In this document: piece by piece, positions 109 through 35,542 of the stretch | Position numbering within the stretch: position 1 is the stretch's first letter | Layout of the letters: the number at the start of each line of letters is the position of its first letter | Assembly (NCBI GenBank): GCA_964564925.1 | Contig: CAZMBY010000001.1 | Location: 37,929 to 101,928, forward strand | Direction: 5' to 3' | DNA from: an uncultured Methanosarcinales archaeon | GTDB taxonomy: Archaea; Nanobdellota; Nanobdellia; Woesearchaeales; GW2011-AR4 | Length of the DNA stretch: 64,000 bases | Notes under the pieces: model-generated | What the model saw: the letters and a program-made list of their open reading frames with translations, nothing else | Database searches by the model: none | What the model was told of the DNA's origin: nothing | Made by a program: the position numbers and the translations under genes

Positions 109-618
109 ATGCAAGAAAAAGAGGGGATTAAGCAGGCTGAAAAAAGAGTTTTGGATACATTAAACTATCTTAAAAAGCAGAAGTATACTCAAGAACAGAT
201 AAGTGAGATTGTTGGAAGAGTTCTAAGGATACAGCCAAAAGAAGAGGTCAAAGTGCCTATTTCTGTTTTCAAAAGTAACCATCTTGGCAGCTTGGAGACA
301 ATTGTAAAGTACCTTAGGGAAAACTTATTTCTTACCTTCAGGCAGATTGGCACCCTGACAAACAGAAATCAGGTGGCATTGGCTGTCACGTACAGAAATG
401 CAAAGAAAAAAGCGCACGCCAAATTTGCTGAAGAGGTGTCCCCTTATTCTATTCCTGTTTCGATTCTTCAGGACAGAAAGCTAAGCGTTCTCGAGAATAT
501 ATCTTCCTACTTAAAAGACACTTTTGGGCTTACTTATCATGCGGTTGCTGTGCTGCTGAACAGGGATGACAGAACAATCTGGACTGTTTACCAGAGGGCA
601 AAGAAAAAGAGAAAATGA
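109..618 (+). CDS. Small DNA-binding protein with two tandem HTH modules resembling sigma-70 region 4 (ECF-type)
   Basis: Internal duplication of a ~55-aa module: '...LGSLETIVKYLRENLFLTFRQIGTLTNRNQVALAVTYRNAKKK' and '...LSVLENISSYLKDTFGLTYHAVAVLLNRDDRTIWTVYQRAKKK'. These match the sigma70_r4 pattern (LxxLxxxxrxvfxLxxxxGlsxxEIAxxLgxsxgTVksrlxRArkkL). The stop overlaps the giant gene start by 4 nt (ATGA at 615-618). Confidence 0.45.
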   Translation: MQEKEGIKQAEKRVLDTLNYLKKQKYTQEQISEIVGRVLRIQPKEEVKVPISVFKSNHLGSLETIVKYLRENLFLTFRQIGTLTNRNQVALAVTYRNAKKKAHAKFAEEVSPYSIPVSILQDRKLSVLENISSYLKDTFGLTYHAVAVLLNRDDRTIWTVYQRAKKKRK

Positions 619-3600
619 ATAGAATACAAAATTTCGAAAAATACGGATATGTTTATGCAGCTGTGCTAGCTGTGATACTTCTTTCAGCAATAATACTCAT
701 TAACAAGCCCGCAACAACAGGATTTGCTGTTGCAAATGAATCTTCTGATGATAAGGCTAAAAGCAAGGATATTAACGAGAGTGTTGAGCCTGCTTCCAAG
801 AAAACAATTGAAATTCCAGCCATAAATGTGTCTGCAGTTGAAACTGGCAATAATGTAACAACAAATGAAACAAAAGATAAGTCAAAAGAGGAAAAACAGA
901 GTGAAAAAAAACCAGAAGACAAAACCATTGAAATAAAGCTTGATTACAAGAGCGGAACTCTGTATGACAGCGATGACGATGGTGTTGAAACAACAACGGG
1001 CATTGTGGACTTAAGCGTTGAAAACACAAAATTCGGCTGGGATGCAAAGGATGAGAACCTTTGCACGAGATGGGAAGTATACAGCATTGAAGATGCAGCT
1101 TCAACTATATTATGCTATGGAGGCGAAAAATGCTGCGAATTCGTCAATTTGCTGTCTTCGCGCCCAACTTGGAACGAGCCGTTTTATGCCAGCTACGGCT
1201 CTTATGGCGCAACCCTGCTCAACATTGTCAGTGCTCAAGTCTTATATGTCGACTACAGCCTGGATCCAAACGAGCCGTTTGCTGAGGTTTACAACAGCGA
1301 ATGGGAAAACTCAAGCGTACAGTTCTTTTCAGAGTACATCGACTTCAAGGACACTTGCATTGACACTTGCCTGCTAAGCGGCTTTAACGAAAGCTCATAT
1401 AAATTGATTTTTGAGATAAATAATTCTGTGCTGGTGCTTGACACATTGACTTATACAACAGTAGAAACCATAGACAAAGTCAGAGTCGATGTAGATGTTA
1501 AGGACAGCGAAGGAATTGCATCAGGCTCTTATAGTCTTTATAAGAATAATGATTTAGTCACAGGGGAATATGTAGAGCCTGATTATTACAATATTGAGAT
1601 TATCCCGAATGAAAAAATCATAGACAGATTAGTTGTCAGGCTCAATATATCAAAGCCATTGACAGCCAAAATAGGCCTTGATGATGTAACCAGGGATATT
1701 TCAATAGATTATGTTGACATAAAGAAGACCTTTGCTGCAAGCCTTGAGGATTTGCAGTTTGACGAGGCTGAGCTGGAAGCGACTGCAAGCGCAAATTCTT
1801 TGTATAGATGCAAGCAATGGGACTTTGAAAGGGAGCTGTGCTTTGGCTCATGGGAAAAAGTGATGGATTTGGCTGCTGGCCAGCAGTACAAGCTTTCATT
1901 GGCAAAGGAGGCTGCTGGATTTGTTGAGGGAAATGCAAACATAACAATATCAAATGCAACTGATTTAATTTTTGTTGCAAATATTCCCAACATAAGCATA
2001 GTCAAAAATGGCAATGCGACCATCAATTTGAGCCAATACTTCTCAAATATTGGCGATAAGACAACTTTCACTTATTATTTGCAAGACAACATGAGCATTC
2101 TGTTTGAAAATGACATTGCAACAATCATCCCCGGCAAGGATTTTGTTGGCAGAAGGATAACATTCATAATTGGAAACCAAAGCGACACAGTTGCTGTCTC
2201 AAACGTGTTCAGCATTAATCTTACAGAAGAAAATCCTGCCTTGAAGCGCGGTAAAAGAGGTCCTAACATATTCGAGGATGAAGATGTCCAATTTAGCCGA
2301 GATGGCATCATCTTTGAAACTCCACAAGGTGATTATTTAGAGACCAAGATTATTCCAGATTTGCCAACGCCTCATTCGCATGGTTATGAAATAAGCAGAA
2401 GAAAATTAGCGCAAAAATTTGCATTCAATGCCACAAATAACGGCATTGCCAATCAATTGAAAAATAAGGCTGTTAATGTAGCATATCAATTAAACTTTTT
2501 GCATGACATATCAGGAGAATATCTCTTTGACAAAATCAACCTTAAAGGCAACAGATTTTTCTTCAAGAAAGACTTCTACTGTAATGTGCAGACTGGCAGC
2601 AATCAGTATAATGTCAAAGGCAATATTTTAAATCAAAATTTGCTTGAAGGCGGAGAATCATTAGTCATAAATATTTCTTATTCATTGCCAGCAGACATTC
2701 AAAAAGATTCTGTGATTACATGCTACGACCCAGTCCAGCCCAACACAGATTATGTTGATGGCTCTGCAACTTTGATTGGGACTGGAAGCCCGGAAACAAC
2801 TCTTGCTTCTTTGGGTACTGACATTCCAGCAGGCACAAACGCTGTCTTAGTTTTTGCATACATGAATACAAGTAGTGCGTCAGACAGTGATACAACATTC
2901 ACACTGCGAAGAAATGGAAACCTGATATTAACAAGTGCTGGCGCATCCCAAATTGAGACTACCGCAGTAGCAGAGACAGAGCTATGGGCAGGAGTTTATC
3001 TCGATGAAAATGCTCCAGCCTCTCCATTATATGAATTGAATGCAACATCAACCCTTTCAAACGCAATAATAGGTGAGGCGAAGATCGCCGTGCTTAACGG
3101 AGTGACTGGATACTACAACAGGTCTTCCAGAACTCCTATCACAGTATCAACAACAGTTCCTACATCGCTTGCAATGGCAAAAACAAATTTACCTGCAGGA
3201 AACCATACAATAATTGCAATAGTCGAATATAATATGACAGGTGCGGCAGGAAGGAATATTGCTGCAAAGGGCCTTCAGTTGAGGAATGTTTCAGGGAACA
3301 CTTTCAGTGTGCTTGCACAGAATGAATATATCATAGAGTTATCCTCGTCTGGTGCTGCAGACAATTCCAGGGTTGCTGTGCTCACAGCCTATGATACAAA
3401 TGCTCCGGCAAATGCGCAATATAATCTGACCTCAGTGATAAGCGGCTCGTTAGTTGTGGGAACAGGCACAATACTGGTGCTGGATTCCAACAACATGTCG
3501 ATAGCATATTCCAACATTTCAAATAATTTAGGTATTACCGCAACTAATATAACAAGCTACACTACAGATTTTCCAGCTGACGGTGATTCAATCGTAATTG

Positions 3601-6600
3601 CAACGGCACAGGCAACATCTACTACATCAAACAAGTTTATACCGGCAGGCGGCCTGCAAATCAGGCAAAATAATGAATCGAGTGTGAACGGCACTTCAAG
3701 CGAATTTACTCTTATGGTTGATGTTGGCGTAGCTGGGAATTTTTTTGGACTTGTCAGAAAATATGGCAATATTTCAGCAAATCCTGATTACAGCCTGTTG
3801 AGCAACATATCAAGCACAGCACACGTAACCACAATGACAGGTAGATTGCTAGCCATAAGAGTGAAAAGCCCTACTGCCGATGTGACTTTCCCGATGGTCA
3901 ACACTTCTTTTAACATTTCAAGCCCGACAGCAGGCCAAGTGATAAACTTCACAGGCAATGCTACAGACGACATTGGATTGGTTGCAATGAACATAACCTA
4001 TAACCTATCGGGAATCATAACCTATCTTAATTTTTCATTGTCAGGCTTGCCAAAATTCCAGCAAGTGAGCAACGTTACCACACTTCCGGCAACAGCAGCA
4101 GTCCTTAATTTCACTTTGTATGCTACAGACATAGGGAATAATGTTAAGCAGAACAGCACTTTGATCAGTGTGACAACAGTAGACCAATTTCCATCATTAA
4201 AAATCAGCTTCAATCTTTCCTCCATACAGCAAGGGAATGTAATAAACTTTTCAGCCAATGCAACAGATGATGCTGGATTATTATTTATTAATTTGACAAA
4301 CAACCAGTCAGGGTCAGGGCAATTTATGAATTATTCAGTTTCTGGAATATCCTATAATGTTAGCAACACAACTTCTATAACTGCTGCCGCTGGAAATGTC
4401 ATCAACTTCACAGCTTATGCAACCGACTCAATAAACCAAGTCACTCAATTAAGCCAGTTGTTTACTGTTATTGAGAGCGCTGCACCTGTTGTCAACACTA
4501 CATTCAATATTTCATCTCCATTAATTAACAACGTGATTAACTTCACAGGAAACATAACAGATGAGAGTGGATTGCTGATGGCAAACATAACATGGAACAT
4601 AAGCGGGATAATCACTTATTCCAATTATACAATTAGTGGAACATCTGCACAAGTCAGCAATGCAACTCAATTAACATCATCTGGAGTATTCAATTTCACG
4701 ATGTTTGCTACAGACACAAGCAATAATGTCAAGCAGAATTCAACTTTGATAATAGTGCCATTTGGCACCTTCTACGTCAACATAAGCCTGCCATTAAATA
4801 ATTCGCAAGTTACAGTTAATACAACATTTTCCTTAATTGCCAATGTAACCTGTAAAAATGCAGATTGCGGCGTTGTTCAGGGGCTTGCAAGGTATAACGA
4901 TAGTGGAAGCAATATCAGCAACAAGAGCATTAGCACTGTAAAATTTGCAACTCCATTGTTTATTAATGGCTCTGGAAGCGGCATTAAGCAATACAATTTT
5001 GGCGGTGTCACCTATCCTGCAGCCATTACATCGAGTAATGCAACTTATGGGTATCATACTTCAACAAAACCACAATTTGTAAATTTAACATCAGAAACAG
5101 AATTTGGTGGTGGAGGGAACACTGCAAATAATTATACTAATATTTCAAGCTTGGATGAAGTTTATGCACTATCTACCGGAGGCTCTAGTAGATTTGTTGC
5201 ACATAAATTCATATTCAAAATTAATGAATCTGAAAGTGCGGTTTCAAAATTGACAATATTTTGGAATGGGACAGGAGGACGCTCAGGGGGCGATTTAGGC
5301 GGTCCTGATGTTAATATCAACTTATCAATTTGGGATAGCAATGCTTGGGAAGTTTTGGGAAATTGTACTAAACCTAATGTTAATCCTATTACAGATTCTG
5401 GTTGTGTGATTAACTCTACCATAATAACAAACATTGGAAATTATATCAATGAAACAGATAACAACGCAGTCTACATATTAGCTATATCATCATTCAGTGG
5501 ACAAGGTGGTCCTGGCGGTTATACCAGTGCTGTTAAAACCAACTACATAGAACTCAATGTTACTTCCACAGCACAAAACCCGCTCTCATGCGGCAATATG
5601 CTCCAAAACGACCAGTGCCAGTTGAACTGGACGATTAATGCTAGCGGTGATGTTGGCTCTCAATTAGTTGTTGATGTCAACTTCAGCTCTGACAATGCAA
5701 ATGTTGCTGCGAATGACACAGAGGATCATTTGATTATAATTGTCGGTGCAGCAGACACAACATTCCCAATAGTAAACACATCATTCAATATTTCATCTCC
5801 ATTAATTAACAATGTGATTAACTTTACTGGAAATATAACTGATGAGACTGGGTTGTTGATGGCAAACATAACATGGAACATAAGCGGGATAATCACTTAT
5901 TCAAACTACACAATCAGCGGAACTTCCGCTCAAGTAAGCAATGCAACTCAATTAACTTCATCCGGAGTATTCAATTTTACAATGTATGCTACTGATACTA
6001 ACAACAATGTAAAGCAGAATTCAACTTTGATAATAGTGCCGTTTGGTGGCTTACTTATCAACATAAGCCTGCCACTAAATAATTCGCAAGTAGTTGCTAA
6101 TACAACATTTTCCTTAATTGCTAATGTAACCTGCAAGAATGCAGATTGCGGCGTTGTTCAAGGAATTGCAAGGTACAACGATTCAGCAAGCAATGTTTCA
6201 AACAAGTCGATAAGCATAACATTTGGAGCAACTCCATTGTTTGTGAATGGCACAGGAGAGGTCATTAAACATTATGATTTTGGAGGAATCACTTATCCTT
6301 CTCCAGTTGCTTTAAGCAATGCAACATACGGCAATCATACTTCCACAAAGCCAGATTCCATAAATTTATCAGGGGAGTCTGAATTTGGAAGTGGTGGAAG
6401 CCTAAATATTAATTATTCAAATATCTCATCTCTTGATGATGTATTTGCTAAAACAAGGGACAACACTGCTAAGTTCGCAGCGCAAAAATTCACTTTCAAA
6501 ATCAATGAGTCCGAGGATGCAATATCCAGCTTAAAAATTCTTTGGAACGGTACAGGTGGTCGAGGAGCAGAAGGCGATTCACAAGGTGTGAATGTCAACG

Positions 6601-9600
6601 TTTCAATTTGGAATAGTAATGCTTGGGAGGCGATTGGAAACTGCACAAAACCGAGCGTAGACGCAAGTAGTGATACTGGCTGTGTCATAAATATATCCAT
6701 CACCTCAAATATTGCTAACTACATAAATGAAACGGACAATAATGCAGTTTATATATTGGCGTTATCAATGTTTCCTGGAAGCTTTGGAAGAGTGAGTGTG
6801 GTCAGGACCAACTATATAGAATTGAATGCAACAACTACAGCAGCAAATCCTCTTTCCTGCGGCAATATGCTCCAAAACGACCAGTGCCAGCTAAACTGGA
6901 CGATTAATGCAAGTGGGGATGTTGGCTCTCAGTTAGTTGTTGATGTCAACTTTAGCTCTGACAATGCAAATGTTGTTGCGAATGACACAGAAGATCATTT
7001 GATTACAATTGTAGGTGCAGCAGACACAACTCCACCAATCGTGAACACAACATTGAATGCAACAACAGGAGCAGATGGGTATCAATTCACTTCAAGGAAT
7101 ATAGATGTCTTGAACTTTACGGGAAATGTGACTGATGAGACAGCTTTGCTGTCTGCAAACTGGACAGTAAACTTCTCAAGCAACAAGCAGTTCATGAACT
7201 ACACTTTGTCTGGAACAAGTGCGCAGGCAAGCAACACAACGGATTTAAGGGGATTGGTTAATGGAAGTGTATTGAACTTTACATTATTTGCAACTGATAC
7301 TTCAAATAATGTAAAACAAAATTCTACTCTGCTGATCGTTACTGACGCTTTAGTGCCTGTTGTGAATACAACCTTAAATGCAACTCCAAGAATAAAAGAT
7401 GTCATAAACATAACAGCAAACATAACTGATGAAACAAGAATAATGACTGCTAACATAACAATCAACTTCACAACAGGGACTGTATACGTAAATTTCACTT
7501 CGACAAGCGCATCATCACAATTCAGCAACTCAAGCCAGATCCCAGACAACTGTGTTGGAGGCTGTGTGATAAACTACACAGTTTATGCCACAGACACGAG
7601 CAATAATGTTAAGCAAAACTCAACTGTTGTGACGGTTATAGACAATGTGTTCCCGATAGTAAATACTACATTCAATAAAACAAACCCTGCGGTTAATGAC
7701 ATAATCAACATCTCAGGAAACATAACGGATGAAACTGGCTTGCTTTCGGCGAACATCACATGGAACATATCAGGCATAATAACTTATTCAAACTATACTC
7801 TTTCCGGAACCTCGGCCCAATTATCCAATTCCACTGCCTTAGCCTGCACTGAGTCTTGTGTTATAAACTTTACAATGTATGCCACAGATGCATCTGCCAA
7901 TGTCAAGCAGAACAGCACATTGCTTATTATAAATGATTTAACTGCACCAGTTGCCAATACAACTTTTAACTCAACAATCCCAAGAAATATAGACATAATT
8001 AATTTCAGTGGCAATATAACTGACGGGATAGGATTGCTTTCTGCAAACTGGACAATAAATTATTCAAATAATAAGATTTACATGAACTATACTTTGTCGG
8101 GAACAACTGCGCAAGTGAGCAACACAACTGATTTAAGGGGATTGGTTAATGGAAGTGTATTAAACTTTACTTTATATGCAACAGACACTTCAAATAATGT
8201 CAAGCAGAATTCAACTCTGCTGATTGTTATTGATTCTTTAGCTCCTGTTGTAAATACGACATTCAATATTTCATCTCCATTCATTAACAACGTGATTAAC
8301 TTTACTGGAAACATAACAGATGAGAGTGGGTTGTTGATGGCAAACATAACTTGGAACATAAGCGGAATGATAACCTATTCTAATTACACTTTATCTGGGA
8401 CTAGCGCACAAGTAAGCAACGCGACAACTTTGCCTTCAACCCCTGCTGTAATTAACTTCACGATGTTTGCTACAGACACAAGCAATAATGTCAAGCAGAA
8501 CTCCACTTTGATTTCCGTAATTGATTTGATCCCAAGGATCAACGCTTCTTTGGATGATGCACTTCCATTCCAATTCTCAAGGGTAAACATGACTGCAAAT
8601 GTCAGCGATGAAACAGGATTGGCTTTCTGCCAGTTCATTGACAACCAAAGCCTCTCTAATGGGGCCAAGACTTACTTCAATACCTCTGTCACTGGAACAA
8701 GCGATCAATGCAGCCAAAACTATACGATAAGATTGGCTGCTGGAAGCGTGATTAACTTTACTGTTATTGTGAATGATACAAATAATAATATTAACGCTAG
8801 TGTTAATAGAAGTGATTCTGGTACTTTACATATTGGGCAGATTATAACTGTTAGATCTAATGCTATTAATAATTGTACCACACTTGATGCTCCAAATTCA
8901 GTTTTTAACTTAACGCAAGATGCAAATAGCGGGGAAACCTGCTTCTACATAGCTGCGAATAATGTAACTCTAGATTGCAAAGGTTTTGAGATTAATTATT
9001 CGCAAAGCGCTGTTGGGTATGGAATTAATATATCAAGCCAGAATTATTCTACTGTTAAAAGCTGCAATATTGTGCAGGCTGATTTATCTTCTGATACGGC
9101 AAATTCTTATGGGGTTTATGTATTTAAGAACTCGAGCAACAATACTTTCTACAATAATACAATAACAACTAGTGGGAGTAATGCTAATGGGGTGCATTTA
9201 ACTTCAACTGCTTATAATAATTCTGTTTATAGCAATACGATAGCAACTAGTGGTGCTGGGATTGGGGTGTATTTACTTTTAACTGCTTATGGCAATAATG
9301 TGCATAATAATAACATAACAATAACAACTAGTGATAGTAACGGGTTTGGGGTGTCTTTAAATTCAAATGCTTATAATAATTCTGTTTATGGCAATACGAT
9401 AATAACTAGCGGGAGTACTGGGTATGGGGTGTATTTACTATCAACTGCTTATAATAATTCTGTTTATAGCAATACGATAGCAACTAGTGGGGGTGTTGGG
9501 ATTGGGGTGTATTTAGACACAACTGCTTATGGTAATAATATTTATAGCAATAACATAACAACTACTGGGAGTAATGGGAATGGTGTGTGTTTAGACACAA

Positions 9601-12230
9601 CTGCTTATGGTAATAATGTATATGATAATAACATAACAACTAGCGGGAGTACTGGGTATGGGGTGTGTTTAGATACAACTGCTTATGGTAATAATATTTA
9701 TAGCAATAACATAACAACTAGCGGGAGTAACGGTTTTGGGGTGTATTTACTATCAACTGCTTATAATAATTCTGTTTATGGCAATACGATTGCAACTAGC
9801 GGGAGTACTGGGTATGGGGTGCGTTTAGCATCGACTACTTATGGTAATAATGTATATGATAATAACATAACAACTAGCGGGGGTAACGGTTTTGGGGTGT
9901 ATTTACAATCAACTGCTTATAATAATTCTGTTTATGGCAATACGATTGCAACTAGCGGGAGTACTGGGTATGGAGTGTATTTACTATCAACTGCTTATAA
10001 TAATTCTGTTTATAGCAATACTATCACAACATCCAATTTGTCCAGTCACGGTATTTATCTAAATAACAATGTTTTCAACAACACAATTTATGGCAACAAC
10101 ATTACAACAAAAAATACAAGCAGTTCTTATAGTATTTACTTGGAAAGGGGCGTAAACAACAATTCATTCTACAGGAATAGGATATCATCATTGGCAGCAG
10201 GAATTGTGATTAACGGAAGCACTCCGACAGATACTGAAGTGACAACATTCAATTCGTTCACAAACGATACAATAGTTCCATGCACAACAGGATGCGCTTC
10301 TAACTACCAAGATATTGTTCTGACAGCAAATGCAACCGATATAACATTCATTAATGCCAGCTTCAACAAGTCAAGAGTTGCATTTAGTCCTTTGGGATTA
10401 GCTGCGCCAAGAGAAAAAAACAACATGACGGTCCAATGGTTCCTTGATGTCAACGTAACAAATTCCTCAAACAATAATCCCATAGCAAATGCACAGGTTG
10501 TTATCAATGACACAAATGGCTTAAATATATTTAATGGCACGACAGATGCAACTGGAGGCATTCCCACACAGCTTGTCACAGAATTTACAATGAACGGCTC
10601 TGTCCCTTGGGGCAATAATGACAGCTGCAGGCAGGTATTAAACACTCTTATAACTGAAAACTTGACTTGCTTCACAACCTACAACATAAGCGTTAATTAT
10701 ACAGGTTATAATAATAACAACACAAAGGCTGATGTTAACAGCAGCAAGTTCTTGAATTTGAGCATGGCGATTATCGCAGACACAACATTCCCAATAGTCA
10801 ACACAACATTAAACGCGACAATTGCATCAGAAGGAACATCTCAGTTCACAGCAAGGAATATAGATGTGATTAATTTCACAGGCAACATCACAGATGAAAC
10901 TGGATTGTTGTCAGCAAACTGGACTGTAAATTTCTCAAACAATAAGCAGTTCATGAACTACACATTATCAGGCACTACAGCGCAAGTGAGCAACACAACT
11001 GATTTAAGGGGATTGGTAAATGGAAGCGTATTGAATTTCACTTTGTATGCAACTGACACTTCAAATAACGTAAAACAAAATTCAACTTTGCTTATCGTGA
11101 CAGACGCTTTAGTGCCTGTTGTTAACACAACTTTCAATATTTCATCTCCATTCATTAACAACGTGATTAACTTTACTGGAAACATAACTGATGAAAGTGG
11201 ATTGAAGTTTGTTAATGTGACTTACAATTTAAGTGGAGTAATAACATACGCAAACTACACTATTTCAGGAACAAGCATACAGATAAGCAATGTCACAACA
11301 TTGTGCAGCTCTGCTTGTGTATTAAACTTCACTATGTTTGCAACTGACACTTCGAGTAATGTCAAGCAGAACAGCACTTTGATCACAGTTACAAACAGAG
11401 CGCCAATAATCAAGCTCAACAACGTGACTGGTTTTGCTGTTGATCCTGTTGAAGCGGGAAATTCAATAATCTTGCTCTCATTCAATGTCACAGATTCTGA
11501 TGGAGCAGCAACAATCAATGCAAGCAAAGCGATTGTCAACCTGACTCTGGGAACAAATGATGGGCAGTTCAGGTTTAACATATCAAGGCCTGATAGCGAC
11601 TCAGAATTTGGCACATGCATCAATCACACAGAACCAGGTCCCGGCTCTGAAACTGCAAGAGTGGTAATAAACTGCACTGTTTTGTTAAGATACTATGAAA
11701 ATTCAAGCTCCAACTGGGTGATTAATATCAGTGTAAAGGATATATCAGGCTCGGCTGCAATAAATGACACTTTGAGATTTACTTATAATGTCTTGTCTGC
11801 GATTTCGTTGCCATACCAATCCATAAACTTCAGCACTGTAAACCTTGGGCAGCAGAATGTGAAGGCGTATCCGCATATCCTGATGAACAACACAGGCAAT
11901 GATGACTTCAACAGGATAAACATGAGCGCAGCTGCACTTGTCGGCACGACAACAGCATCTGAGAGTATTGGAGTCACTAACTTTGGCGTCAACTTGACAA
12001 ACAGCTCAACATCTGAAAACAAATACCTGGCATTCTCTGCTGATGGCACAGTTAATTTGAGAAATCCTCTTAATGGGAGCAACGCCTCTTTATATCACGG
12101 GCATACAAGCGCCTTCGCTCCAAACAATGACAAAGGGAACATAAGCGCTTTCATTTGGGTCAATGTGCCAAGCTCTGGATTGAGCGCGCAATTATACAAC
12201 GCGACCTGGAATATAACTGCTGTTTCTTGA
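615..12230 (+). CDS. Giant (3871 aa) secreted/cell-surface glycoprotein with N-terminal signal anchor, many Ig-like ~86-aa modules, lectin-like domains and an embedded right-handed beta-helix repeat domain
   Basis: Uninterrupted 11.6-kb ORF with an N-terminal hydrophobic segment (YVYAAVLAVILLSAIILI). Roughly 9 N-x-S/T sequons per 86-aa module, e.g. 'TTFNISSPLINNVINFTGNITDESGLLMANITWNISGIITYSNYTISGTSAQVSNATQL...FNFTMFATDTSNNVKQNSTLIIV' repeated more than 10 times. No C-terminal TM. Confidence 0.85.
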   Translation: MNRIQNFEKYGYVYAAVLAVILLSAIILINKPATTGFAVANESSDDKAKSKDINESVEPASKKTIEIPAINVSAVETGNNVTTNETKDKSKEEKQSEKKPEDKTIEIKLDYKSGTLYDSDDDGVETTTGIVDLSVENTKFGWDAKDENLCTRWEVYSIEDAASTILCYGGEKCCEFVNLLSSRPTWNEPFYASYGSYGATLLNIVSAQVLYVDYSLDPNEPFAEVYNSEWENSSVQFFSEYIDFKDTCIDTCLLSGFNESSYKLIFEINNSVLVLDTLTYTTVETIDKVRVDVDVKDSEGIASGSYSLYKNNDLVTGEYVEPDYYNIEIIPNEKIIDRLVVRLNISKPLTAKIGLDDVTRDISIDYVDIKKTFAASLEDLQFDEAELEATASANSLYRCKQWDFERELCFGSWEKVMDLAAGQQYKLSLAKEAAGFVEGNANITISNATDLIFVANIPNISIVKNGNATINLSQYFSNIGDKTTFTYYLQDNMSILFENDIATIIPGKDFVGRRITFIIGNQSDTVAVSNVFSINLTEENPALKRGKRGPNIFEDEDVQFSRDGIIFETPQGDYLETKIIPDLPTPHSHGYEISRRKLAQKFAFNATNNGIANQLKNKAVNVAYQLNFLHDISGEYLFDKINLKGNRFFFKKDFYCNVQTGSNQYNVKGNILNQNLLEGGESLVINISYSLPADIQKDSVITCYDPVQPNTDYVDGSATLIGTGSPETTLASLGTDIPAGTNAVLVFAYMNTSSASDSDTTFTLRRNGNLILTSAGASQIETTAVAETELWAGVYLDENAPASPLYELNATSTLSNAIIGEAKIAVLNGVTGYYNRSSRTPITVSTTVPTSLAMAKTNLPAGNHTIIAIVEYNMTGAAGRNIAAKGLQLRNVSGNTFSVLAQNEYIIELSSSGAADNSRVAVLTAYDTNAPANAQYNLTSVISGSLVVGTGTILVLDSNNMSIAYSNISNNLGITATNITSYTTDFPADGDSIVIATAQATSTTSNKFIPAGGLQIRQNNESSVNGTSSEFTLMVDVGVAGNFFGLVRKYGNISANPDYSLLSNISSTAHVTTMTGRLLAIRVKSPTADVTFPMVNTSFNISSPTAGQVINFTGNATDDIGLVAMNITYNLSGIITYLNFSLSGLPKFQQVSNVTTLPATAAVLNFTLYATDIGNNVKQNSTLISVTTVDQFPSLKISFNLSSIQQGNVINFSANATDDAGLLFINLTNNQSGSGQFMNYSVSGISYNVSNTTSITAAAGNVINFTAYATDSINQVTQLSQLFTVIESAAPVVNTTFNISSPLINNVINFTGNITDESGLLMANITWNISGIITYSNYTISGTSAQVSNATQLTSSGVFNFTMFATDTSNNVKQNSTLIIVPFGTFYVNISLPLNNSQVTVNTTFSLIANVTCKNADCGVVQGLARYNDSGSNISNKSISTVKFATPLFINGSGSGIKQYNFGGVTYPAAITSSNATYGYHTSTKPQFVNLTSETEFGGGGNTANNYTNISSLDEVYALSTGGSSRFVAHKFIFKINESESAVSKLTIFWNGTGGRSGGDLGGPDVNINLSIWDSNAWEVLGNCTKPNVNPITDSGCVINSTIITNIGNYINETDNNAVYILAISSFSGQGGPGGYTSAVKTNYIELNVTSTAQNPLSCGNMLQNDQCQLNWTINASGDVGSQLVVDVNFSSDNANVAANDTEDHLIIIVGAADTTFPIVNTSFNISSPLINNVINFTGNITDETGLLMANITWNISGIITYSNYTISGTSAQVSNATQLTSSGVFNFTMYATDTNNNVKQNSTLIIVPFGGLLINISLPLNNSQVVANTTFSLIANVTCKNADCGVVQGIARYNDSASNVSNKSISITFGATPLFVNGTGEVIKHYDFGGITYPSPVALSNATYGNHTSTKPDSINLSGESEFGSGGSLNINYSNISSLDDVFAKTRDNTAKFAAQKFTFKINESEDAISSLKILWNGTGGRGAEGDSQGVNVNVSIWNSNAWEAIGNCTKPSVDASSDTGCVINISITSNIANYINETDNNAVYILALSMFPGSFGRVSVVRTNYIELNATTTAANPLSCGNMLQNDQCQLNWTINASGDVGSQLVVDVNFSSDNANVVANDTEDHLITIVGAADTTPPIVNTTLNATTGADGYQFTSRNIDVLNFTGNVTDETALLSANWTVNFSSNKQFMNYTLSGTSAQASNTTDLRGLVNGSVLNFTLFATDTSNNVKQNSTLLIVTDALVPVVNTTLNATPRIKDVINITANITDETRIMTANITINFTTGTVYVNFTSTSASSQFSNSSQIPDNCVGGCVINYTVYATDTSNNVKQNSTVVTVIDNVFPIVNTTFNKTNPAVNDIINISGNITDETGLLSANITWNISGIITYSNYTLSGTSAQLSNSTALACTESCVINFTMYATDASANVKQNSTLLIINDLTAPVANTTFNSTIPRNIDIINFSGNITDGIGLLSANWTINYSNNKIYMNYTLSGTTAQVSNTTDLRGLVNGSVLNFTLYATDTSNNVKQNSTLLIVIDSLAPVVNTTFNISSPFINNVINFTGNITDESGLLMANITWNISGMITYSNYTLSGTSAQVSNATTLPSTPAVINFTMFATDTSNNVKQNSTLISVIDLIPRINASLDDALPFQFSRVNMTANVSDETGLAFCQFIDNQSLSNGAKTYFNTSVTGTSDQCSQNYTIRLAAGSVINFTVIVNDTNNNINASVNRSDSGTLHIGQIITVRSNAINNCTTLDAPNSVFNLTQDANSGETCFYIAANNVTLDCKGFEINYSQSAVGYGINISSQNYSTVKSCNIVQADLSSDTANSYGVYVFKNSSNNTFYNNTITTSGSNANGVHLTSTAYNNSVYSNTIATSGAGIGVYLLLTAYGNNVHNNNITITTSDSNGFGVSLNSNAYNNSVYGNTIITSGSTGYGVYLLSTAYNNSVYSNTIATSGGVGIGVYLDTTAYGNNIYSNNITTTGSNGNGVCLDTTAYGNNVYDNNITTSGSTGYGVCLDTTAYGNNIYSNNITTSGSNGFGVYLLSTAYNNSVYGNTIATSGSTGYGVRLASTTYGNNVYDNNITTSGGNGFGVYLQSTAYNNSVYGNTIATSGSTGYGVYLLSTAYNNSVYSNTITTSNLSSHGIYLNNNVFNNTIYGNNITTKNTSSSYSIYLERGVNNNSFYRNRISSLAAGIVINGSTPTDTEVTTFNSFTNDTIVPCTTGCASNYQDIVLTANATDITFINASFNKSRVAFSPLGLAAPREKNNMTVQWFLDVNVTNSSNNNPIANAQVVINDTNGLNIFNGTTDATGGIPTQLVTEFTMNGSVPWGNNDSCRQVLNTLITENLTCFTTYNISVNYTGYNNNNTKADVNSSKFLNLSMAIIADTTFPIVNTTLNATIASEGTSQFTARNIDVINFTGNITDETGLLSANWTVNFSNNKQFMNYTLSGTTAQVSNTTDLRGLVNGSVLNFTLYATDTSNNVKQNSTLLIVTDALVPVVNTTFNISSPFINNVINFTGNITDESGLKFVNVTYNLSGVITYANYTISGTSIQISNVTTLCSSACVLNFTMFATDTSSNVKQNSTLITVTNRAPIIKLNNVTGFAVDPVEAGNSIILLSFNVTDSDGAATINASKAIVNLTLGTNDGQFRFNISRPDSDSEFGTCINHTEPGPGSETARVVINCTVLLRYYENSSSNWVINISVKDISGSAAINDTLRFTYNVLSAISLPYQSINFSTVNLGQQNVKAYPHILMNNTGNDDFNRINMSAAALVGTTTASESIGVTNFGVNLTNSSTSENKYLAFSADGTVNLRNPLNGSNASLYHGHTSAFAPNNDKGNISAFIWVNVPSSGLSAQLYNATWNITAVS
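4480..7030 (+). repeat. Tandem intragenic duplication of a ~1.28-kb (~425-aa) segment within the giant gene (copy 1 ~4480-5756, copy 2 ~5757-7030)
   Basis: The protein segments 'FNISSPLINNVINFTGNITDE...CGNMLQNDQCQLNWTINASGDVGSQLVVDVNFSSDNANV..NDTEDHLI.IVGAADTT' occur twice back to back. They are ~80-85% identical at protein level and carry identical DNA stretches (e.g. 5571-5700 vs 6851-6980). Confidence 0.8.
9105..10200 (+). repeat. Array of ~15 near-identical 66-69-nt (22-23 aa) tandem repeats encoding parallel beta-helix (PbH1/pectate-lyase-like) rungs
   Basis: The protein repeats 'NNSVYGNTIATSGSTGYGVYLLSTAY' / 'GNNVYDNNITTSGSNGFGVYLxSTAY'. The DNA units at 9760-9830 and 9910-9980 are nearly identical. 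Confidence 0.8.
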
Positions 12231-12300
12231 ATCTATTGCAACTGCCCATGAACTACGAGGGAGAATAAATGCCTGAAAAACAAAAAGTTTAGGGGGTTTT

Positions 12301-13439: not shown

Positions 13440-13527
13440 CGGCTATTTCCTTTTAGTTAATAGTTATTAACTTATCGTTAATAGTATATAAAAATGTTTC
13501 GGTTTTTTCTTTCATATACCGAGCTCT

Positions 13528-13590
13528 GGATTAAGCGCGCAATTATACAACGCAACTTGGAATATAACTGCTGTTTCTTGGATACTACTG
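13528..13590 (+). pseudogene. Orphan remnant of the 3' end of the surface-protein C-terminal cassette
   Basis: 'gagctctggattaagcgcgcaattatacaacgcaacttggaatataactgctgtttcttgg' is ~90% identical to the last ~60 nt of both 615..12230 and 14236..15180 (…SGLSAQLYNATWNITAVS*). It has no upstream ORF. Confidence 0.7.
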
Positions 13591-14235: not shown

Positions 14236-15180
14236 ATGATTGTAAGGATAAAAAAGAGGAGCCTGGCATTATTAGTTATACTTGCTATTGTCAGTGTATC
14301 TATAGTGTATGCAGCTTCCACTTCTGTTGTAAAAAAATTTAAGGTTGATCTTGTCATTACAAACAGAAATCCGCAGATTAATGTTTCTAATGTGAGCGGT
14401 TTTTCTGTTGATCCTTCAGAGGGAGGAAATTCAATTGTTTTGATTTCATTCAATGTCACAGACGCAGATGGAGCAGGCAATATAAACGCAAGCACAGCCA
14501 TAGTCAATTTCACGCTTGGCTCTCCGAATGGGCAGCATTACGCCAATGTATCTGCTGTAGCAAGCTCTGAATTCGGAACGTGCATAAACCATAGCGAATC
14601 GAGCACAGTAGTTGTGGTAAATTGCACTGTTGTAGTCCCATATTTCGCTAATTCCAGCTCTATTTGGGTTGTGAATATAAGCATTAGAGATATATTTGGC
14701 GGCTCAGCCACAAATGACACACTAAGGTTTACATATAACATCCTCTCAGCGTTGTCATTGCCCTATTCATTCACCAACTTCAGCACTGTAAACCTTGGGC
14801 AGCAGAATGTGAGGGCGTATCCGCATATCCTGATGAACAACACAGGCAATGATGACTTCAACAGGATAAACATGAGCGCAGCTGCACTTGTCGGCACGAC
14901 AACAGCATCTGAGAGTATTGGAGTCACTAACTTTGGCGTCAACTTGACAAACAGCTCAACATCTGAAAACAAATACCTGGCATTCTCTGCTGATGGCACA
15001 GTTAATTTGAGAAATCCTCTTAATGGGAGCAACGCCTCTTTATATCACGGGCATACAAGCGCCTTCGCTCCAAACAATGACAAAGGGAACATAAGCGCTT
15101 TCATTTGGGTCAATGTGCCAAGCTCTGGATTGAGCGCGCAATTATACAACGCGACCTGGAATATAACTGCTGTGTCGTAA
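14236..15180 (+). CDS. Secreted 314-aa paralog of the giant protein's C-terminal ~290 aa, with its own signal peptide
   Basis: N-terminal signal 'LALLVILAIVSVSIVYAAS'. Residues 40-175 are ~55% identical to the giant protein region 'NRAPIIKLNNVTGFAVDPVEAGNSIILLSFNVTDSDGAATINAS...'. The last ~135 aa are identical to the giant protein C-terminus. Confidence 0.8.
   Translation: MIVRIKKRSLALLVILAIVSVSIVYAASTSVVKKFKVDLVITNRNPQINVSNVSGFSVDPSEGGNSIVLISFNVTDADGAGNINASTAIVNFTLGSPNGQHYANVSAVASSEFGTCINHSESSTVVVVNCTVVVPYFANSSSIWVVNISIRDIFGGSATNDTLRFTYNILSALSLPYSFTNFSTVNLGQQNVRAYPHILMNNTGNDDFNRINMSAAALVGTTTASESIGVTNFGVNLTNSSTSENKYLAFSADGTVNLRNPLNGSNASLYHGHTSAFAPNNDKGNISAFIWVNVPSSGLSAQLYNATWNITAVS
14777..15175 (+). 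repeat. ~400-bp segment ~99% identical to 11827..12225 (3' end of the giant gene)
   Basis: Direct comparison of the two stretches shows one substitution (gaaggcg vs gagggcg) plus differences in the last two codons. Upstream flanks have diverged. Confidence 0.9.
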
Positions 15181-15220: not shown

Positions 15221-15772
15221 ATGAAGCGTTTAATAGTTCTGGCAGCAGCTTTGATGATTGCGATTCCAATTGTAAATTCTCTTGGTGTAGTGTCTGATTA
15301 TTTGGAAGGAAACACTTTGGAGATAACAGAAGGCCAATCAAAGATTTTCAGCATAAGGCTCCAAAATCCAACTGAAAGCGAAATAGCTATTGTTTTGAAT
15401 TACGACAAGGCTTTTATGAAAGCTGTAGACTATAAAGAAGTTTATGTTTTGCCTGCCAAAACATCAGGATACAGGGTATTATTCAATGTAACAGCGCCAG
15501 GCAAGCCAGGCATGTACGCCATAAGCTATACTGTTGGCGAGGTAGAGCCAAGCGGCGGCGGAGGCTTGCCATTGCGCCTTAAGATAAGCAAAAATCTTAA
15601 TCTGAAGGTTGTTGAAGACCCAAACAAGCCAAAAGTCAGCCGCTCTAAGGATGACTTTATGGCAATATTGCTGATGATGGCAATGATTGCAGGCATTTTG
15701 ATAGTGTTTCTGTACAGAAAAAGCCGCAGAAGACATGCCAAAAGGTATACCAATAGAAAAGTAAATAAATGA
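15221..15772 (+). CDS. Small secreted protein with signal peptide and C-terminal TM anchor plus basic tail
   Basis: N-terminal 'LIVLAAALMIAIPIVNS', C-terminal 'ILLMMAMIAGILIVFLYRKSRRRHAKRY'. The ORF is clean, following a GGTGA-like RBS. Confidence 0.55.
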   Translation: MKRLIVLAAALMIAIPIVNSLGVVSDYLEGNTLEITEGQSKIFSIRLQNPTESEIAIVLNYDKAFMKAVDYKEVYVLPAKTSGYRVLFNVTAPGKPGMYAISYTVGEVEPSGGGGLPLRLKISKNLNLKVVEDPNKPKVSRSKDDFMAILLMMAMIAGILIVFLYRKSRRRHAKRYTNRKVNK

Positions 15773-15794
15773 TTAGTGTAAGGTTCTTGTAAAC

Positions 15795-16949: not shown

Positions 16950-17095
16950 ACAGGCAATAAAAGGAAAATTTTAAATTTTAGTTATATCAAACTAAATATT
17001 GAATTTCAAGCCCAAAAAAATTATGGATATTTCTTTTTCATCTTTTCTAAATTGTGAAATAGATAATTAATGAAAAACAAAAATTATTAAAGCGA

Positions 17096-31694: not shown

Positions 31695-31719
31695 AGGTAT
31701 AATGGAGTGAATATTTAGA

Positions 31720-32646: not shown

Positions 32647-32689
32647 AAACATAAGATTTTTATATGCATAAACAAAAAATTTTAACAAA

Positions 32690-33835: not shown

Positions 33836-33861
33836 ATTATTTATCAAAAGAGGTGTAGATT

Positions 33862-35541: not shown

Positions 35542-35542
35542 A

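What the first reader, a model, noticed from the sequence alone, without database searches (positions are those of the whole stretch)
615..12230. 3871-aa hyper-N-glycosylated giant surface protein
This single ORF encodes ~18% of the window. It combines a signal anchor, more than 10 Ig-like ~86-aa modules each carrying ~9 N-x-S/T sequons, duplicated lectin/jelly-roll-like segments and a beta-helix domain. This is the architecture expected of a host- or substrate-attachment protein in an episymbiotic or surface-dwelling archaeon. AglB is encoded in the same window.
Basis: partly seen in the sequence, partly recalled or inferred. Interest (0 to 1): 0.6.

Follow-up and report, generated by a model that had tools for sequence, protein, structure and literature searches.

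The report
Giant sequon-studded archaeal surface fibre protein
A real 3871-residue cell-surface protein of a tiny groundwater-type (Woesearchaeota, DPANN) archaeon looks built to carry an unusually dense sugar coat, and its far end is kept matched by gene conversion to a small secreted protein encoded next door; both the coat and any role in attachment are predicted, not shown.

Summary
ORF 615-12230 (+) is intact and encodes 3871 aa (414 kDa, pI 4.5). It has 265 N-x-S/T sequons against 106±9 expected from composition. The reverse motif is not enriched.

It contains 12 modules of about 100 aa (not 86). They are seven-stranded Ig-like sandwiches (AlphaFold pLDDT >90), and every strand carries 1-2 sequons. 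The same 10 sequon columns are kept in 79 modules from 48 other proteins.

- The β-helix is confirmed (13 × 26-aa coils; Pfam NosD/Beta_helix).
- The ~330-aa duplication is confirmed. Its "lectin/jelly-roll" label is not.
- AglB is present, 37 kb away.

All relatives are from Woesearchaeota/Nanoarchaeota MAGs.

New findings:
- An unannotated Cys-rich N-terminal domain defines a family of at least 553 protein clusters, with members up to 6010 aa.
- The C-terminal 274 aa is a paralogue of a secreted 314-aa protein 2 kb downstream.
- A 360-nt tract is identical between the two genes. In 11 independent loci their last ~140 aa are 64-97% identical within a genome but about 44% between genomes, which indicates recurrent gene conversion.

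An adhesion role is plausible but inferred. Verdict: a new variant of a known kind (DPANN giant surface proteins), of moderate interest.

The parts
109..618 (+). 169-aa protein with two σ70-region-4-like helix-turn-helix repeats. Its stop overlaps the giant's start codon by 4 nt.
   Evidence: Weak Pfam Sigma70_r4_2 hit (5.8e-4, below cut-off). A homologue at 63-72% identity (weaker, 36-50%, in four loci) lies upstream on the same strand in 25 of the 54 loci held, including nearly all close head-family loci and L053.
615..12230 (+). Giant ORF: 3871 aa, 413.9 kDa, pI 4.48, 265 sequons.
   Evidence: The exact protein is on record from an NCBI contig of 104,232 bp.
648..704 (+). N-terminal hydrophobic segment (aa 12-30), followed by the family motif TGFAV. 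Probably a signal anchor; cleavage is not excluded.
   Evidence: Sequence. Family members carry 50-110 cytoplasmic residues before the equivalent segment, e.g. P0172, which also ends in the C-terminal unit.
921..1463 (+). Domain A (aa 103-283): Cys-rich head domain with six invariant Cys and a D-x-[DN]-x-[DN]-G-x-E loop. Sequon-poor (1.7 per 100 aa).
   Evidence: No Pfam, NCBIfam or PDB match. 553 cluster representatives at E<=1e-3 and 485 at E<=1e-10. Among the 167 of the 234 proteins then held that matched over most of the domain: one copy each, median start at residue 196 (range 1-727), lengths up to 5614 aa; the longest family member listed is 6010 aa. Invariant residues. AlphaFold gives only pLDDT 50-80, and <50 for its last third.
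1482..2255 (+). Domain B (aa 290-450, two invariant Cys) and domain C (aa 452-547, Big_9/cadherin-like in homologues): β-sandwiches.
   Evidence: AlphaFold pLDDT >90 (B) and about 87 (C). Foldseek gives Ig/cadherin-like hits including dystroglycan. Homologues carry precomputed PF17963/PF17892.
2292..3890 (+). aa 560-1092: three or four weakly related ~120-aa β-rich units, unassigned.
   Evidence: Pairwise local alignment z = 4.4-6.3 against shuffles for three pairs. No family or PDB match.
3879..4772 (+). Sequon-studded Ig-like modules 1-3 (aa 1089-1386).
   Evidence: The model of module 3 has pLDDT >90 and 7 strands, with all 10 sequons in or abutting strands.
4773..5753 (+). Segment A (aa 1387-1713): a β-sandwich that appears split by an insert of ~200 aa. 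Fold of the insert unknown.
   Evidence: The flanks are confident β structure, the core has pLDDT <50, and there are no family hits.
5754..6053 (+). Module 4 (aa 1714-1813).
6054..7022 (+). Segment A' (aa 1814-2136): duplicate of segment A.
   Evidence: E=9e-157 to segment A. DNA copies are 86-87% identical over 264-300 nt.
7023..8822 (+). Modules 5-10 (aa 2137-2736). Module 10 is divergent.
9108..10214 (+). Right-handed parallel β-helix: about 13 very regular 26-aa coils (aa 2832-3200).
   Evidence: Pfam NosD 2.8e-15 and Beta_helix 2.6e-11, both above cut-off. 78-nt DNA periodicity. Register shown.
10215..10778 (+). aa 3201-3388: β-rich region with a weak CarboxypepD_reg/bMG3-like signal. 9.5 sequons per 100 aa.
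   Evidence: (below cut-offs).
10779..11405 (+). Modules 11-12 (aa 3389-3597).
11406..12227 (+). C-terminal unit (aa 3598-3871, probably two domains). Paralogue of a family of secreted proteins of ~300-345 aa.
   Evidence: 60 homologues, most full-length matches to proteins of 300-360 aa. 79% identical to ORF 14236-15180. No Pfam, PDB or NCBIfam match. No viral relatives.
11826..12223 (+). Gene-conversion tract: 398 nt with 1 mismatch (360 nt exact, 11864-12223), identical to 14776-15173.
   Evidence: Upstream identity drops to about 65-70%. The last two codons differ synonymously and the stop codons differ.
13514..13583 (+). Orphan 70-nt remnant of the same 3' end (encodes HIPSSGLSAQLYNATWNITAVS).
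   Evidence: Similar remnants occur in L050 and L082.
14236..15180 (+). Secreted 314-aa paralogue of the giant's C-terminal unit (signal peptide MIVRIKKRSLALLVILAIVSVSIVYA). 21 sequons.
   Evidence: The gene order giant then standalone is seen in 13 loci (11 independent).
15221..16949 (+). Two conserved type-I membrane proteins (183 aa and 384 aa): signal peptide, Ig-like domain(s), C-terminal TM and basic tail. They follow the C-terminal-unit gene(s) in the four other loci compared (three for the 384-aa protein).
   Evidence: 34-54% identity to the gene in the same position in L050, L051, L053 and L054.
49312..52701 (+). AglB/STT3 oligosaccharyltransferase (WWDFG at aa 753).

Best explanation
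The ORF is a genuine gene of a Woesearchaeota-type DPANN archaeon. It encodes a 414-kDa acidic cell-surface fibre.

**Shown**
- One N-terminal hydrophobic segment.
- A sequon-poor, Cys-rich head (domains A-C) that defines a large unannotated protein family.
- A long array of roughly 25-30 β-sandwich domains plus a 13-coil β-helix.
- Twelve ~100-aa seven-stranded Ig-like modules with an N-x-S/T on every strand. The sequon positions are conserved across species, with S/T interchange at the +2 position.
- A C-terminal unit that has a secreted paralogue next door, homogenised with it by gene conversion in many genomes.

**Inferred**
- After Sec export, AglB loads the stalk with N-glycans at up to about one site per 10 residues. 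This would make a stiff, protease- and virus-resistant glycan-sheathed spacer of the order of 100 nm.
- The protein most likely stays anchored by its N-terminal segment and presents the C-terminal unit distally.
- Because only the last ~140 aa are kept matched between the giant and the secreted 314-aa protein, the two most likely co-assemble or bind the same partner. That partner could be a target on another cell or surface, or the conserved membrane Ig proteins encoded just downstream.
- The overall role is contact or attachment of an ultrasmall, probably partner-dependent cell.
For: - **Intact ORF:**
- **Directional sequon excess:** z=18 forward against 1.1 for the reverse motif.
- **Conserved sequon columns:** 10 columns at 62-97% occupancy in 79 foreign modules from 48 proteins, with S/T interchange and a mean of 9.8 sequons per 100 aa.
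- **Module fold:** pLDDT >90, 7 strands, 1-2 sequons per strand. Foldseek hits are tandem β-sandwich stalks, including an adhesin extender region, 6xi3.
- **β-helix:**
- **AglB with a WWDFG motif:**
- **Taxon:** all relatives come from Woesearchaeota/Nanoarchaeota MAGs.
- **Head family:** 553 representatives; one copy each, median start residue 196, in the 167 proteins examined.
- **Anchoring:** family members have long cytoplasmic N-termini before the TM segment. P0172 also ends in the C-terminal unit.
- **Sequon distribution:** the head has 1.7-1.9 sequons per 100 aa, the modules 10.1.
- **C-terminal paralogue and identical tract:**
- **Concerted evolution:** in 11 independent loci the C-part is 78% identical within a locus and 44% between loci, with no orthology signal. 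The N-part retains an orthology signal.
- **Conserved gene order:** with two membrane Ig proteins and an upstream HTH gene.
Against: - No glycan, expression or localisation data exist for this protein.
- No recognisable ligand-binding, lectin or enzymatic domain was found.
- Topology is ambiguous. The n-region here is short, so signal-peptide cleavage cannot be excluded. Some family members have a TM segment at both ends.
- Gene conversion between adjacent paralogues can be neutral and need not reflect a shared interface.
- Dense sequons also occur on other secreted proteins of the window, so the coat may be an organism-wide trait rather than a feature of this protein's function.
- Domain A and the segment-A core are poorly modelled.
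Confidence: 0.6

Rival explanations
1. Protective envelope or glycocalyx component. The protein, possibly with the 314-aa secreted paralogue as a lattice or sheath subunit, builds a dense glycan brush. The brush would shield a cell that has a minimal envelope from proteases, viruses or desiccation. No specific attachment is involved.
For: - The stalk dominates the protein, and sequons are its most conserved feature.
- Other secreted ORFs in the window are equally sequon-dense.
- No binding domain was identified.
- The C-terminal unit family is widespread as a small standalone secreted protein, as expected of a structural subunit.
Against: - A conserved, sequon-poor, Cys-rich head and a distinct C-terminal unit suggest specific protein contacts.
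- There are several head-family paralogues per genome with variable distal parts. That pattern is more typical of diversified interaction proteins than of a single structural coat.
Confidence: 0.22
2. Surface-tethered polysaccharide-acting enzyme or substrate-capture protein. The β-helix would be a lyase/hydrolase-type catalytic domain and the duplicated segments would be carbohydrate-binding jelly rolls.
For: - NosD/Beta_helix Pfam matches.
- Weak sub-threshold hints in or near the segment-A position: Polysacc_lyase 0.0048 in the homologue P0220 and GH114_assoc 0.0044 in segment A'.
- Homologues carry Laminin_G_3 domains.
Against: - The β-helix is an almost perfectly regular 26-aa repeat array, which looks structural rather than like a catalytic groove (general knowledge of pectate-lyase-type helices).
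- All carbohydrate-related hits are below their curated cut-offs.
- There are no PDB sequence relatives.
- The segment-A core is not confidently folded.
Confidence: 0.08
3. The N-x-S/T pattern is a structural or compositional feature of N/S/T-rich β-strands (Asn/Thr ladders) and is not glycosylated to any great extent.
For: - The protein is 12.8% Asn, 11.4% Thr and 10.7% Ser.
- All module sequons sit in β-strands, where acceptor sites in an already folded protein would be poorly accessible. Archaeal AglB is thought to act after or during translocation (general knowledge).
Against: - The excess is strictly directional. N-x-S/T is 2.5× expectation, the reverse motif 1.1×, and N-[ST] and N-x-x-[ST] are depleted.
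- Free S/T interchange at +2 in conserved columns across 79 modules.
- No N-P-S/T occurs.
- AglB is present.
Confidence: 0.07
4. Assembly artefact: the ORF is chimeric, or its repeat number is wrong because of repeats.
For: - The protein is highly repetitive.
- A 360-nt exact repeat links its 3' end to a gene 2.95 kb downstream.
- Read data are unavailable.
Against: - Internal DNA repeats are at most 87% identical over 264-300 nt, and the longest exact internal repeat is 66 nt.
- No frameshift or stop occurs in 11.6 kb of 38% GC DNA.
- An independent 3571-aa giant (L054) shares two C-terminal modules plus the C-terminal unit collinearly, and has the same neighbour.
- The pair arrangement and elevated within-locus identity recur in 11 other independent assemblies.
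- The only linear path through the repeat that uses all segments is the assembled one (inference).
Confidence: 0.03

Closest known systems
Giant membrane-anchored surface proteins of Nanohaloarchaeota (SPEARE; SVXNc_0300 and BNXNv_0298)
   Same: DPANN archaea. Multi-thousand-residue extracellular proteins with an N-terminal export signal and long tandem Ig-like/fibronectin-like arrays, proposed to mediate contact with the host (PMC10266531).
   Different: Those proteins are 8,880-9,409 aa. They contain β-propellers and a VirB4/TraG-like ATPase domain with membrane segments near the C-terminus, and they are read as part of a secretion device (PMC10266531). Here no ATPase or propeller was found. 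The head domain, sequon-studded module and C-terminal unit are different families, and there is no sequence relationship.
Large extracellular proteins of Woesearchaeota/Pacearchaeota with murein lytic transglycosylase domains (Castelle et al. 2021, PMC8204110), and the Cys-rich, Ca-binding large surface proteins of Huberarchaea (Probst et al. 2018, PMC6792436)
   Same: Same or a neighbouring lineage. Large extracellular, partly Cys-rich proteins proposed to mediate symbiont-host contact.
   Different: No transglycosylase domain was detected here. The family here is defined by the unannotated domain A. The sequon saturation and the paired secreted paralogue were not found described in the literature searches run.
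Bacterial giant repeat adhesins with Ig-like extender regions (e.g. the ice-binding adhesin extender, PDB 6xi3)
   Same: The design is anchor, then a long stalk of near-identical ~100-aa β-sandwich modules, then distal functional domains. Foldseek retrieves the 6xi3 tetra-repeat.
   Different: Bacterial extenders are rigidified by Ca2+ and secreted by a type I secretion system (general knowledge). Here the stalk is predicted to be sheathed by N-glycans and exported by Sec. There is no sequence similarity.
Heavily N-glycosylated archaeal S-layer proteins (e.g. Sulfolobus acidocaldarius SlaA)
   Same: AglB-dependent N-glycosylation of extracellular β-rich proteins. SlaA's 31 predicted sites are called a 'remarkable glycosylation density' (PMC5744192).
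   Different: The density here is about 3× higher overall (6.8 per 100 aa) and about 10 per 100 aa in the modules. The comparison uses an SlaA length of ~1,400 aa, from general knowledge. The organism's relatives come from groundwater and sediment metagenomes, not a thermoacidophile, and the protein is a fibre rather than a known lattice former.

Membership tests
Archaeal AglB-dependent N-glycoprotein | Export signal and extracytoplasmic location of the acceptor sites | tested here: met
   N-terminal hydrophobic segment at aa 12-30 and all sequons downstream of it. No SignalP-type tool was available.
Archaeal AglB-dependent N-glycoprotein | N-x-S/T (x not Pro) acceptor sequons under selection | tested here: met
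   265 observed against 106±9 expected. The reverse motif is not enriched. Ten columns are conserved in 79 foreign modules.
Archaeal AglB-dependent N-glycoprotein | AglB/STT3 with a WWDYG-type motif encoded by the organism | tested here: met
   ORF 49312-52701: Pfam STT3 1.8e-35, WWDFG at aa 753.
Archaeal AglB-dependent N-glycoprotein | Glycans actually attached | not testable with these tools
   Requires glycoproteomics.
Right-handed parallel β-helix (Pfam Beta_helix/NosD) | HMM match above the gathering threshold and tandem PbH1-type coils | tested here: met
   NosD 56.8 bits (cut-off 23.6) and Beta_helix 43.8 bits (cut-off 25.9) on aa 2735-3200. 13 coils of 26 aa.
Ig-like β-sandwich repeat (fold level) | Seven-stranded two-sheet sandwich of ~100 aa | tested here: met
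   AlphaFold pLDDT >90 for both modelled modules, 7 strands each. Foldseek hits are tandem Ig/MG arrays with probability 1.0.
Named Ig-like families (Big_x, PKD, cadherin, CARDB) | Significant Pfam or NCBIfam HMM match of the module | tested here: not met
   No hit for a module at E<=10 apart from a chance CooC_C match (0.12). NCBIfam gave none.
Lectin / concanavalin-like jelly roll (for the duplicated segments) | HMM or fold match to a lectin, LamG or CBM family | tested here: inconclusive
   No Pfam, NCBIfam or PDB hit for segment A. Only sub-threshold hints were found. The AlphaFold core has pLDDT <50.
Nanohaloarchaeal SPEARE-type giant proteins | VirB4/TraG-like ATPase domain and C-terminal membrane segments (PMC10266531) | tested here: not met
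   No ATPase domain in whole-protein or segment scans. The C-terminus ends in a soluble β unit.
Woesearchaeota/Pacearchaeota large murein-transglycosylase proteins (PMC8204110) | Lytic transglycosylase domain | tested here: not met
   No such Pfam match.
Woesearchaeal 'domain A' head family (defined here) | Single ~180-aa domain with six conserved Cys near the N-terminus, after a TM segment | tested here: met
   aa 103-283. Alignment invariants. 553 representatives. Single copy, with median start at residue 196.
Giant plus secreted-paralogue pair (defined here) | Long ORF ending in the C-terminal unit, followed on the same strand by a standalone signal-peptide copy, with within-locus homogenisation of the last ~140 aa | tested here: met
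   Window pair: 97-99% identity in the C-part. 11 independent loci: mean 78% within a locus against 44% between loci.

The most novel reading that the evidence does not exclude
The giant and the adjacent 314-aa secreted protein would be two components of a previously undescribed Woesearchaeota-specific surface appendage. The membrane-anchored, glycan-sheathed giant would carry at its tip a domain onto which the secreted paralogue co-assembles, as a cap, a polymer or a shared receptor-binding unit. Recurrent gene conversion would keep that interface matched. The system would be encoded in a conserved cluster with a dedicated double σ4-like HTH protein and two membrane Ig proteins, and it would serve partner-cell recognition.
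Probability: 0.2. Interest if true: 0.7.

Novelty: new variant of a known kind. Interest (0 to 1): 0.5.

Why it matters
Woesearchaeota are abundant, and to my knowledge none has been grown in pure culture. They are assumed to depend on partner cells, but how they make contact is unknown. This locus offers concrete, testable parts:
- a head domain that marks at least 553 protein clusters, including proteins up to 6010 aa;
- an Ig-like module apparently evolved to carry a glycan on every strand, about 10 sequons per 100 aa and well above the S-layer proteins usually cited as densely glycosylated;
- a giant plus secreted paralogue pair whose terminal domain evolves in concert across genomes, which points to the functional end of the fibre.

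If the glycan coat is confirmed, it would be an extreme case of prokaryotic N-glycosylation outside thermoacidophiles. It would also be a natural scaffold for studying AglB site usage on β-sandwich domains.

Tried and rejected
- **Whole-protein homologue search:** timed out, so I searched three segments instead.
- **Whole-protein Pfam scan:** missed the β-helix and gave only chance hits such as PTPLA and CHS4. The segment scan fixed this.
- **Self-BLAST:** returned only the identity hit. It was replaced by phmmer/HMM mapping.
- **PDB sequence and profile searches** of the head, segment A, aa 548-1095, the β-helix region and the C-terminal unit found nothing real. The 'Ika8' hit is a designed β-propeller whose weak repeat scores accumulate, so I rejected it.
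- **NCBIfam:** nothing.
- **Exact-sequence contig look-ups** for the giant, the AdoHcyase gene and P0235 failed. The cluster look-up showed they sit on one unnamed NCBI contig of 104 kb, so the source genome's name was not recovered.
- **Viral scan** for the C-terminal unit: no relatives. A prophage or viral-fibre origin is therefore not supported.
- **Class III (type IV pilin) signal** on the 314-aa protein: considered and rejected, because there is no G/A at position -1 before the hydrophobic stretch.
- **A TasA- or donor-strand-type fibre** reading of the C-terminal unit could not be tested.
Full report
**1. The observation**

ORF 615..12230 on the + strand starts with ATG and runs 3871 codons without interruption in DNA of about 38% G+C. 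That is 18.2% of the window.

The product is 413.9 kDa and acidic (pI 4.48). It is rich in Asn (12.8%), Thr (11.4%) and Ser (10.7%).

It has 265 N-x-S/T sequons (x not Pro), or 6.8 per 100 aa. Shuffles that keep the composition give 106±9 (z=18). The control that matters is direction. The reversed motif S/T-x-N is at expectation (117 vs 107, z=1.1). N-[ST] and N-x-x-[ST] are depleted, and N-P-S/T never occurs. In all, 53.5% of Asn residues sit in sequons. Cytoplasmic-type ORFs of the window carry about 0.0-1.2 per 100 aa. The sequon excess is therefore real, and composition does not explain it.

**2. Anatomy**

HMM mapping finds 12 modules with a period of 99-101 aa, not ~86. They lie at aa 1089-1386 (three), 1714-1813 (one), 2137-2736 (six) and 3389-3597 (two). 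Each has 9-11 sequons in ten shared alignment columns, and pairwise identity is 29-89%.

An AlphaFold model of aa 1287-1813 gives both flanking modules pLDDT >90, with seven strands each. All ten sequons of a module lie in or abut a strand, one or two per strand. Foldseek retrieves only tandem β-sandwich stalks: macroglobulin domains, an adhesin extender region (6xi3) and mastigonemes. The Ig-like label is thus supported at fold level, but no named Ig family matches.

The large duplication is real (aa 1381-1720 vs 1808-2143, E=9e-157). Each copy looks like a β-sandwich split by an insert of ~200 aa. The insert is poorly modelled (pLDDT <50 to 74) and has no Pfam, NCBIfam or PDB relative. 'Lectin/jelly-roll' remains unverified.

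The β-helix is confirmed once scanned alone: NosD 2.8e-15 and Beta_helix 2.6e-11, both above their cut-offs. It is an unusually regular array of 13 coils of 26 aa (78-nt DNA period).

Two smaller regions remain unassigned:
- aa 560-1092 holds three or four weakly related ~120-aa units.
- aa 3201-3388 gives only sub-threshold CarboxypepD_reg/bMG3 signals.

**3. The head and its family**

The N-terminal 1095 aa retrieve 51 proteins. All those that carry a name are from Woesearchaeota or Nanoarchaeota MAGs.

Three elements are conserved:
- Domain A (aa 103-283), with six invariant Cys and a D-x-[DN]-x-[DN]-G-x-E loop that resembles DxDxDG calcium-binding loops. That resemblance is recalled from memory and untested.
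- Domain B (aa 290-450).
- Domain C (aa 452-547), Big_9/cadherin-like in the homologues.

Domains B and C model well as β-sandwiches. Domain A does not.

Domain A alone finds 553 cluster representatives at E<=1e-3 (485 at 1e-10) in a library of 1.84 billion proteins. Of the 234 proteins held at that point, 167 matched it over most of its length; in each it occurs once, with a median start at residue 196 (range 1-727). Family members reach 6010 aa, and the giants among them carry 3.5-6.5 sequons per 100 aa. It has no Pfam, NCBIfam or PDB match.

A scan of one genome per GTDB species found 49 loci. Their records are titled Woesearchaeota, Nanoarchaeota/Nanoarchaeia, plain 'archaeon' or, for TPA bins, 'uncultured Methanosarcinales'. 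The last label is probably wrong, because their sequences are 48-55% identical to named Woesearchaeota loci. Some genomes hold several paralogues.

The head is sequon-poor (1.7-1.9 per 100 aa), against 10.1 in the modules.

**4. Sequons are under selection**

In 79 module instances from 48 other proteins, the same ten columns hold a sequon in 62-97% of cases. S and T interchange freely at the +2 position in most of these columns. The mean density is 9.8 per 100 aa.

Together with an AglB gene (49312-52701; STT3 1.8e-35; WWDFG at aa 753), this is strong indirect evidence for dense N-glycosylation. Occupancy itself cannot be tested here.

For scale, the 31 predicted sites of *Sulfolobus acidocaldarius* SlaA are described as a remarkable density (PMC5744192). 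Full occupancy here with 1-2 kDa glycans would add 265-530 kDa. That figure is arithmetic resting on an assumed glycan mass.

**5. The C-terminal unit and its secreted paralogue (new)**

The last 274-280 aa retrieve 60 proteins. Most are standalone proteins of 300-345 aa with a signal peptide. One of them is ORF 14236-15180, 2 kb downstream. It is 79% identical overall and identical over its last ~130 residues.

At the DNA level, 11864-12223 equals 14814-15173 exactly (360 nt; 398 nt with one mismatch). Upstream, identity falls abruptly to about 65-70%. The last two codons differ synonymously and the stop codons differ.

A third, orphan 70-nt copy of the same 3' end lies at 13514-13583. It sits just beyond a minus-strand pair of small genes that includes an HTH plus nucleotidyltransferase protein.

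The pattern is not peculiar to this assembly:
- In GCA_018303185.1 (L051, and an independent ENA contig, L052) and in GCA_053533475.1 (L054, a 3571-aa giant with 6.3 sequons per 100 aa), a long ORF ending in the same unit is followed by a standalone copy.
- A metagenome scan added more, giving 13 loci, of which 11 are independent.
- Within a locus, the last ~140 aa are on average 78% identical (range 64-97%). Between loci they are 43.6% identical.
- In that C-part there is no orthology signal: fused-to-fused is 43.1% and fused-to-standalone is 43.5%.
- The N-part of the unit does keep an orthology signal: 49.6% against 42.7%.

This is the signature of recurrent gene conversion confined to the terminal sub-domain.

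**6. Gene neighbourhood**

- Upstream, a 169-aa protein with two σ70-region-4-like HTH repeats overlaps the giant's start by 4 nt. A homologue (63-72% identity in most, 36-50% in four) lies upstream on the same strand in 25 of the 54 loci held. σ70-like genes were noted before in Woesearchaeota (PMC8204110).
- Downstream of the standalone gene come two type-I membrane proteins with Ig-like domains (183 aa and 384 aa). Both are conserved in position: the first in the four other loci compared, the second in three.
- Next come a membrane Lon_C-type protease, a PLD-family protein and a PfkB kinase, syntenic with Woesearchaeota MAGs.

**7. How it most likely works**

Shown: the anatomy, the sequon selection, the taxon, the head family, and the paired paralogue with concerted evolution.

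Inferred:
- The protein is exported by Sec and heavily glycosylated by AglB.
- It forms a fibre of roughly 25-30 β-sandwich domains plus a ~6-nm β-helix, of the order of 100 nm. This estimate assumes generic domain sizes.
- N-terminal anchoring with a distal C-terminal unit is favoured. Family members carry 50-110 cytoplasmic residues before the TM segment, and one of them, P0172, also ends in the C-terminal unit.
- Cleavage of the short signal here is not excluded. Some relatives have a TM segment at both ends.
- The matched terminal sub-domain suggests that the giant and the secreted protein co-assemble or share a partner.

Attachment to a partner cell or surface is the most economical role. 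It parallels bacterial giant adhesins and nanohaloarchaeal giant proteins (PMC10266531). However, no binding domain was identified, and a purely protective glycocalyx role is a serious rival.

**8. Assembly integrity**

- Internal DNA repeats are at most 87% identical over 264-300 nt. The longest exact internal repeat is 66 nt.
- The only long exact repeat is the 360-nt tract shared with the neighbouring gene.
- Independent assemblies show the same arrangement.

I could not examine reads, so a chimeric assembly is unlikely but not formally excluded.

**9. Comparison and novelty**

- It is not a SPEARE-type protein, because it has no ATPase or propeller (PMC10266531).
- It is not one of the transglycosylase-bearing large proteins of Woesearchaeota/Pacearchaeota (PMC8204110).
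- It belongs to the known general kind 'giant modular surface proteins of DPANN archaea' (PMC6792436, PMC8204110).
- Its head domain, sequon-studded module and C-terminal unit are unannotated families.
- I found neither the one-sequon-per-strand design nor the concerted giant/secreted pair described in the literature searches run.

Verdict: a new variant of a known kind, interest 0.5.

Noticed in passing
window 12301-13583: A minus-strand pair of small genes sits between the giant and its paralogue: 12301-12840 (179 aa, no family) and 12837-13439 (200 aa, wHTH plus Polβ-type nucleotidyltransferase, toxin-antitoxin-like). It is flanked by 70-nt direct repeats of the giant's 3' end (12163-12232 and 13514-13583, 90% identical). 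This looks like an insertion or recombination scar. In L051 and L054 the intergenic gap is only about 0.1-0.3 kb.
   Followed up: partly
window 109-618: The 169-aa double σ70-region-4-like HTH protein is translationally coupled to the giant (ATGA overlap). At 63-72% identity in most loci it is more conserved than the giant's head (50-55%). It could be a dedicated regulator.
   Followed up: partly
window 40400-44647 (-): A second, unrelated sequon-dense surface protein: 1415 aa, 98 sequons (6.9 per 100 aa), with a C-terminal Pro/Thr-rich linker, a TM anchor and weak Big_13 / purple-acid-phosphatase-N hits. It shows that dense sequons are organism-wide on secreted proteins.
   Followed up: partly
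window 27043-37517: A type IV pilus-like locus. Three proteins have class III (pilin-type) N-termini (391, 1161 and 308 aa; 2.8-4.2 sequons per 100 aa). They are followed by a 381-aa ORF (32690-33835, only a weak HTH hit), a T2SSE/PilB-type ATPase (33862-35541) and downstream ORFs (35543-37517) that I did not scan.
   Followed up: partly
window 45567-47966 (-): A 799-aa secreted, C-terminally anchored protein with internal ~130-aa repeats and FixG_C/NPCBM_assoc-like Ig domains. It has only one sequon, in striking contrast with its neighbours. It may be an S-layer-type or unglycosylated envelope protein.
   Followed up: no
window 39793-40368 (-): A 191-aa secreted protein with about 20 Cys (CxxC-rich) and no family assigned.
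   Followed up: no
window 15221-18886: A conserved trio downstream of the standalone gene: a 183-aa and a 384-aa type-I membrane Ig protein (the latter with a Gly/Ser-rich linker and a cytoplasmic coiled coil), and a 596-aa membrane-anchored Lon_C-type protease without an ATPase domain. The first two are conserved in position in L050, L051 and L053 (the 183-aa one also in L054); the protease gene recurs in L050 and L051.
   Followed up: partly
window 48215-52701: The AglB ORF as listed starts at TTG and has a ~170-aa Lys/Glu-rich N-terminal extension before the first predicted membrane segments, so the true start is uncertain. It directly follows a geranylgeranyl-reductase-like FAD protein (48215-49306).
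   Followed up: no
homologues P0139, P0109, P0163, P0107, P0156, P0074; P0189, P0133, P0165, P0181: Head-family members differ in topology. Some have a ~50-aa conserved cytoplasmic N-terminal domain (LKxYIxxxLxxGYSxxxIKKxL) before the TM segment. Others have a second TM segment plus a basic tail at the C-terminus. A motif [ILV]TG[FY] directly follows the first TM segment in many (47 of 139 examined).
   Followed up: partly
loci L001-L003, L009, L011, L013 and others (genome contigs): Many TPA MAG records titled 'uncultured Methanosarcinales archaeon' carry head-family genes 48-55% identical to those of named Woesearchaeota. The titles look like placeholder or erroneous taxonomy.
   Followed up: no
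L050 ~5805-6000; L082 ~3113-3230: Orphan fragments of the C-terminal unit's 3' end also occur downstream of the pair in other genomes, as in the window at 13514-13583. This suggests repeated recombination at this conserved terminus.
   Followed up: partly
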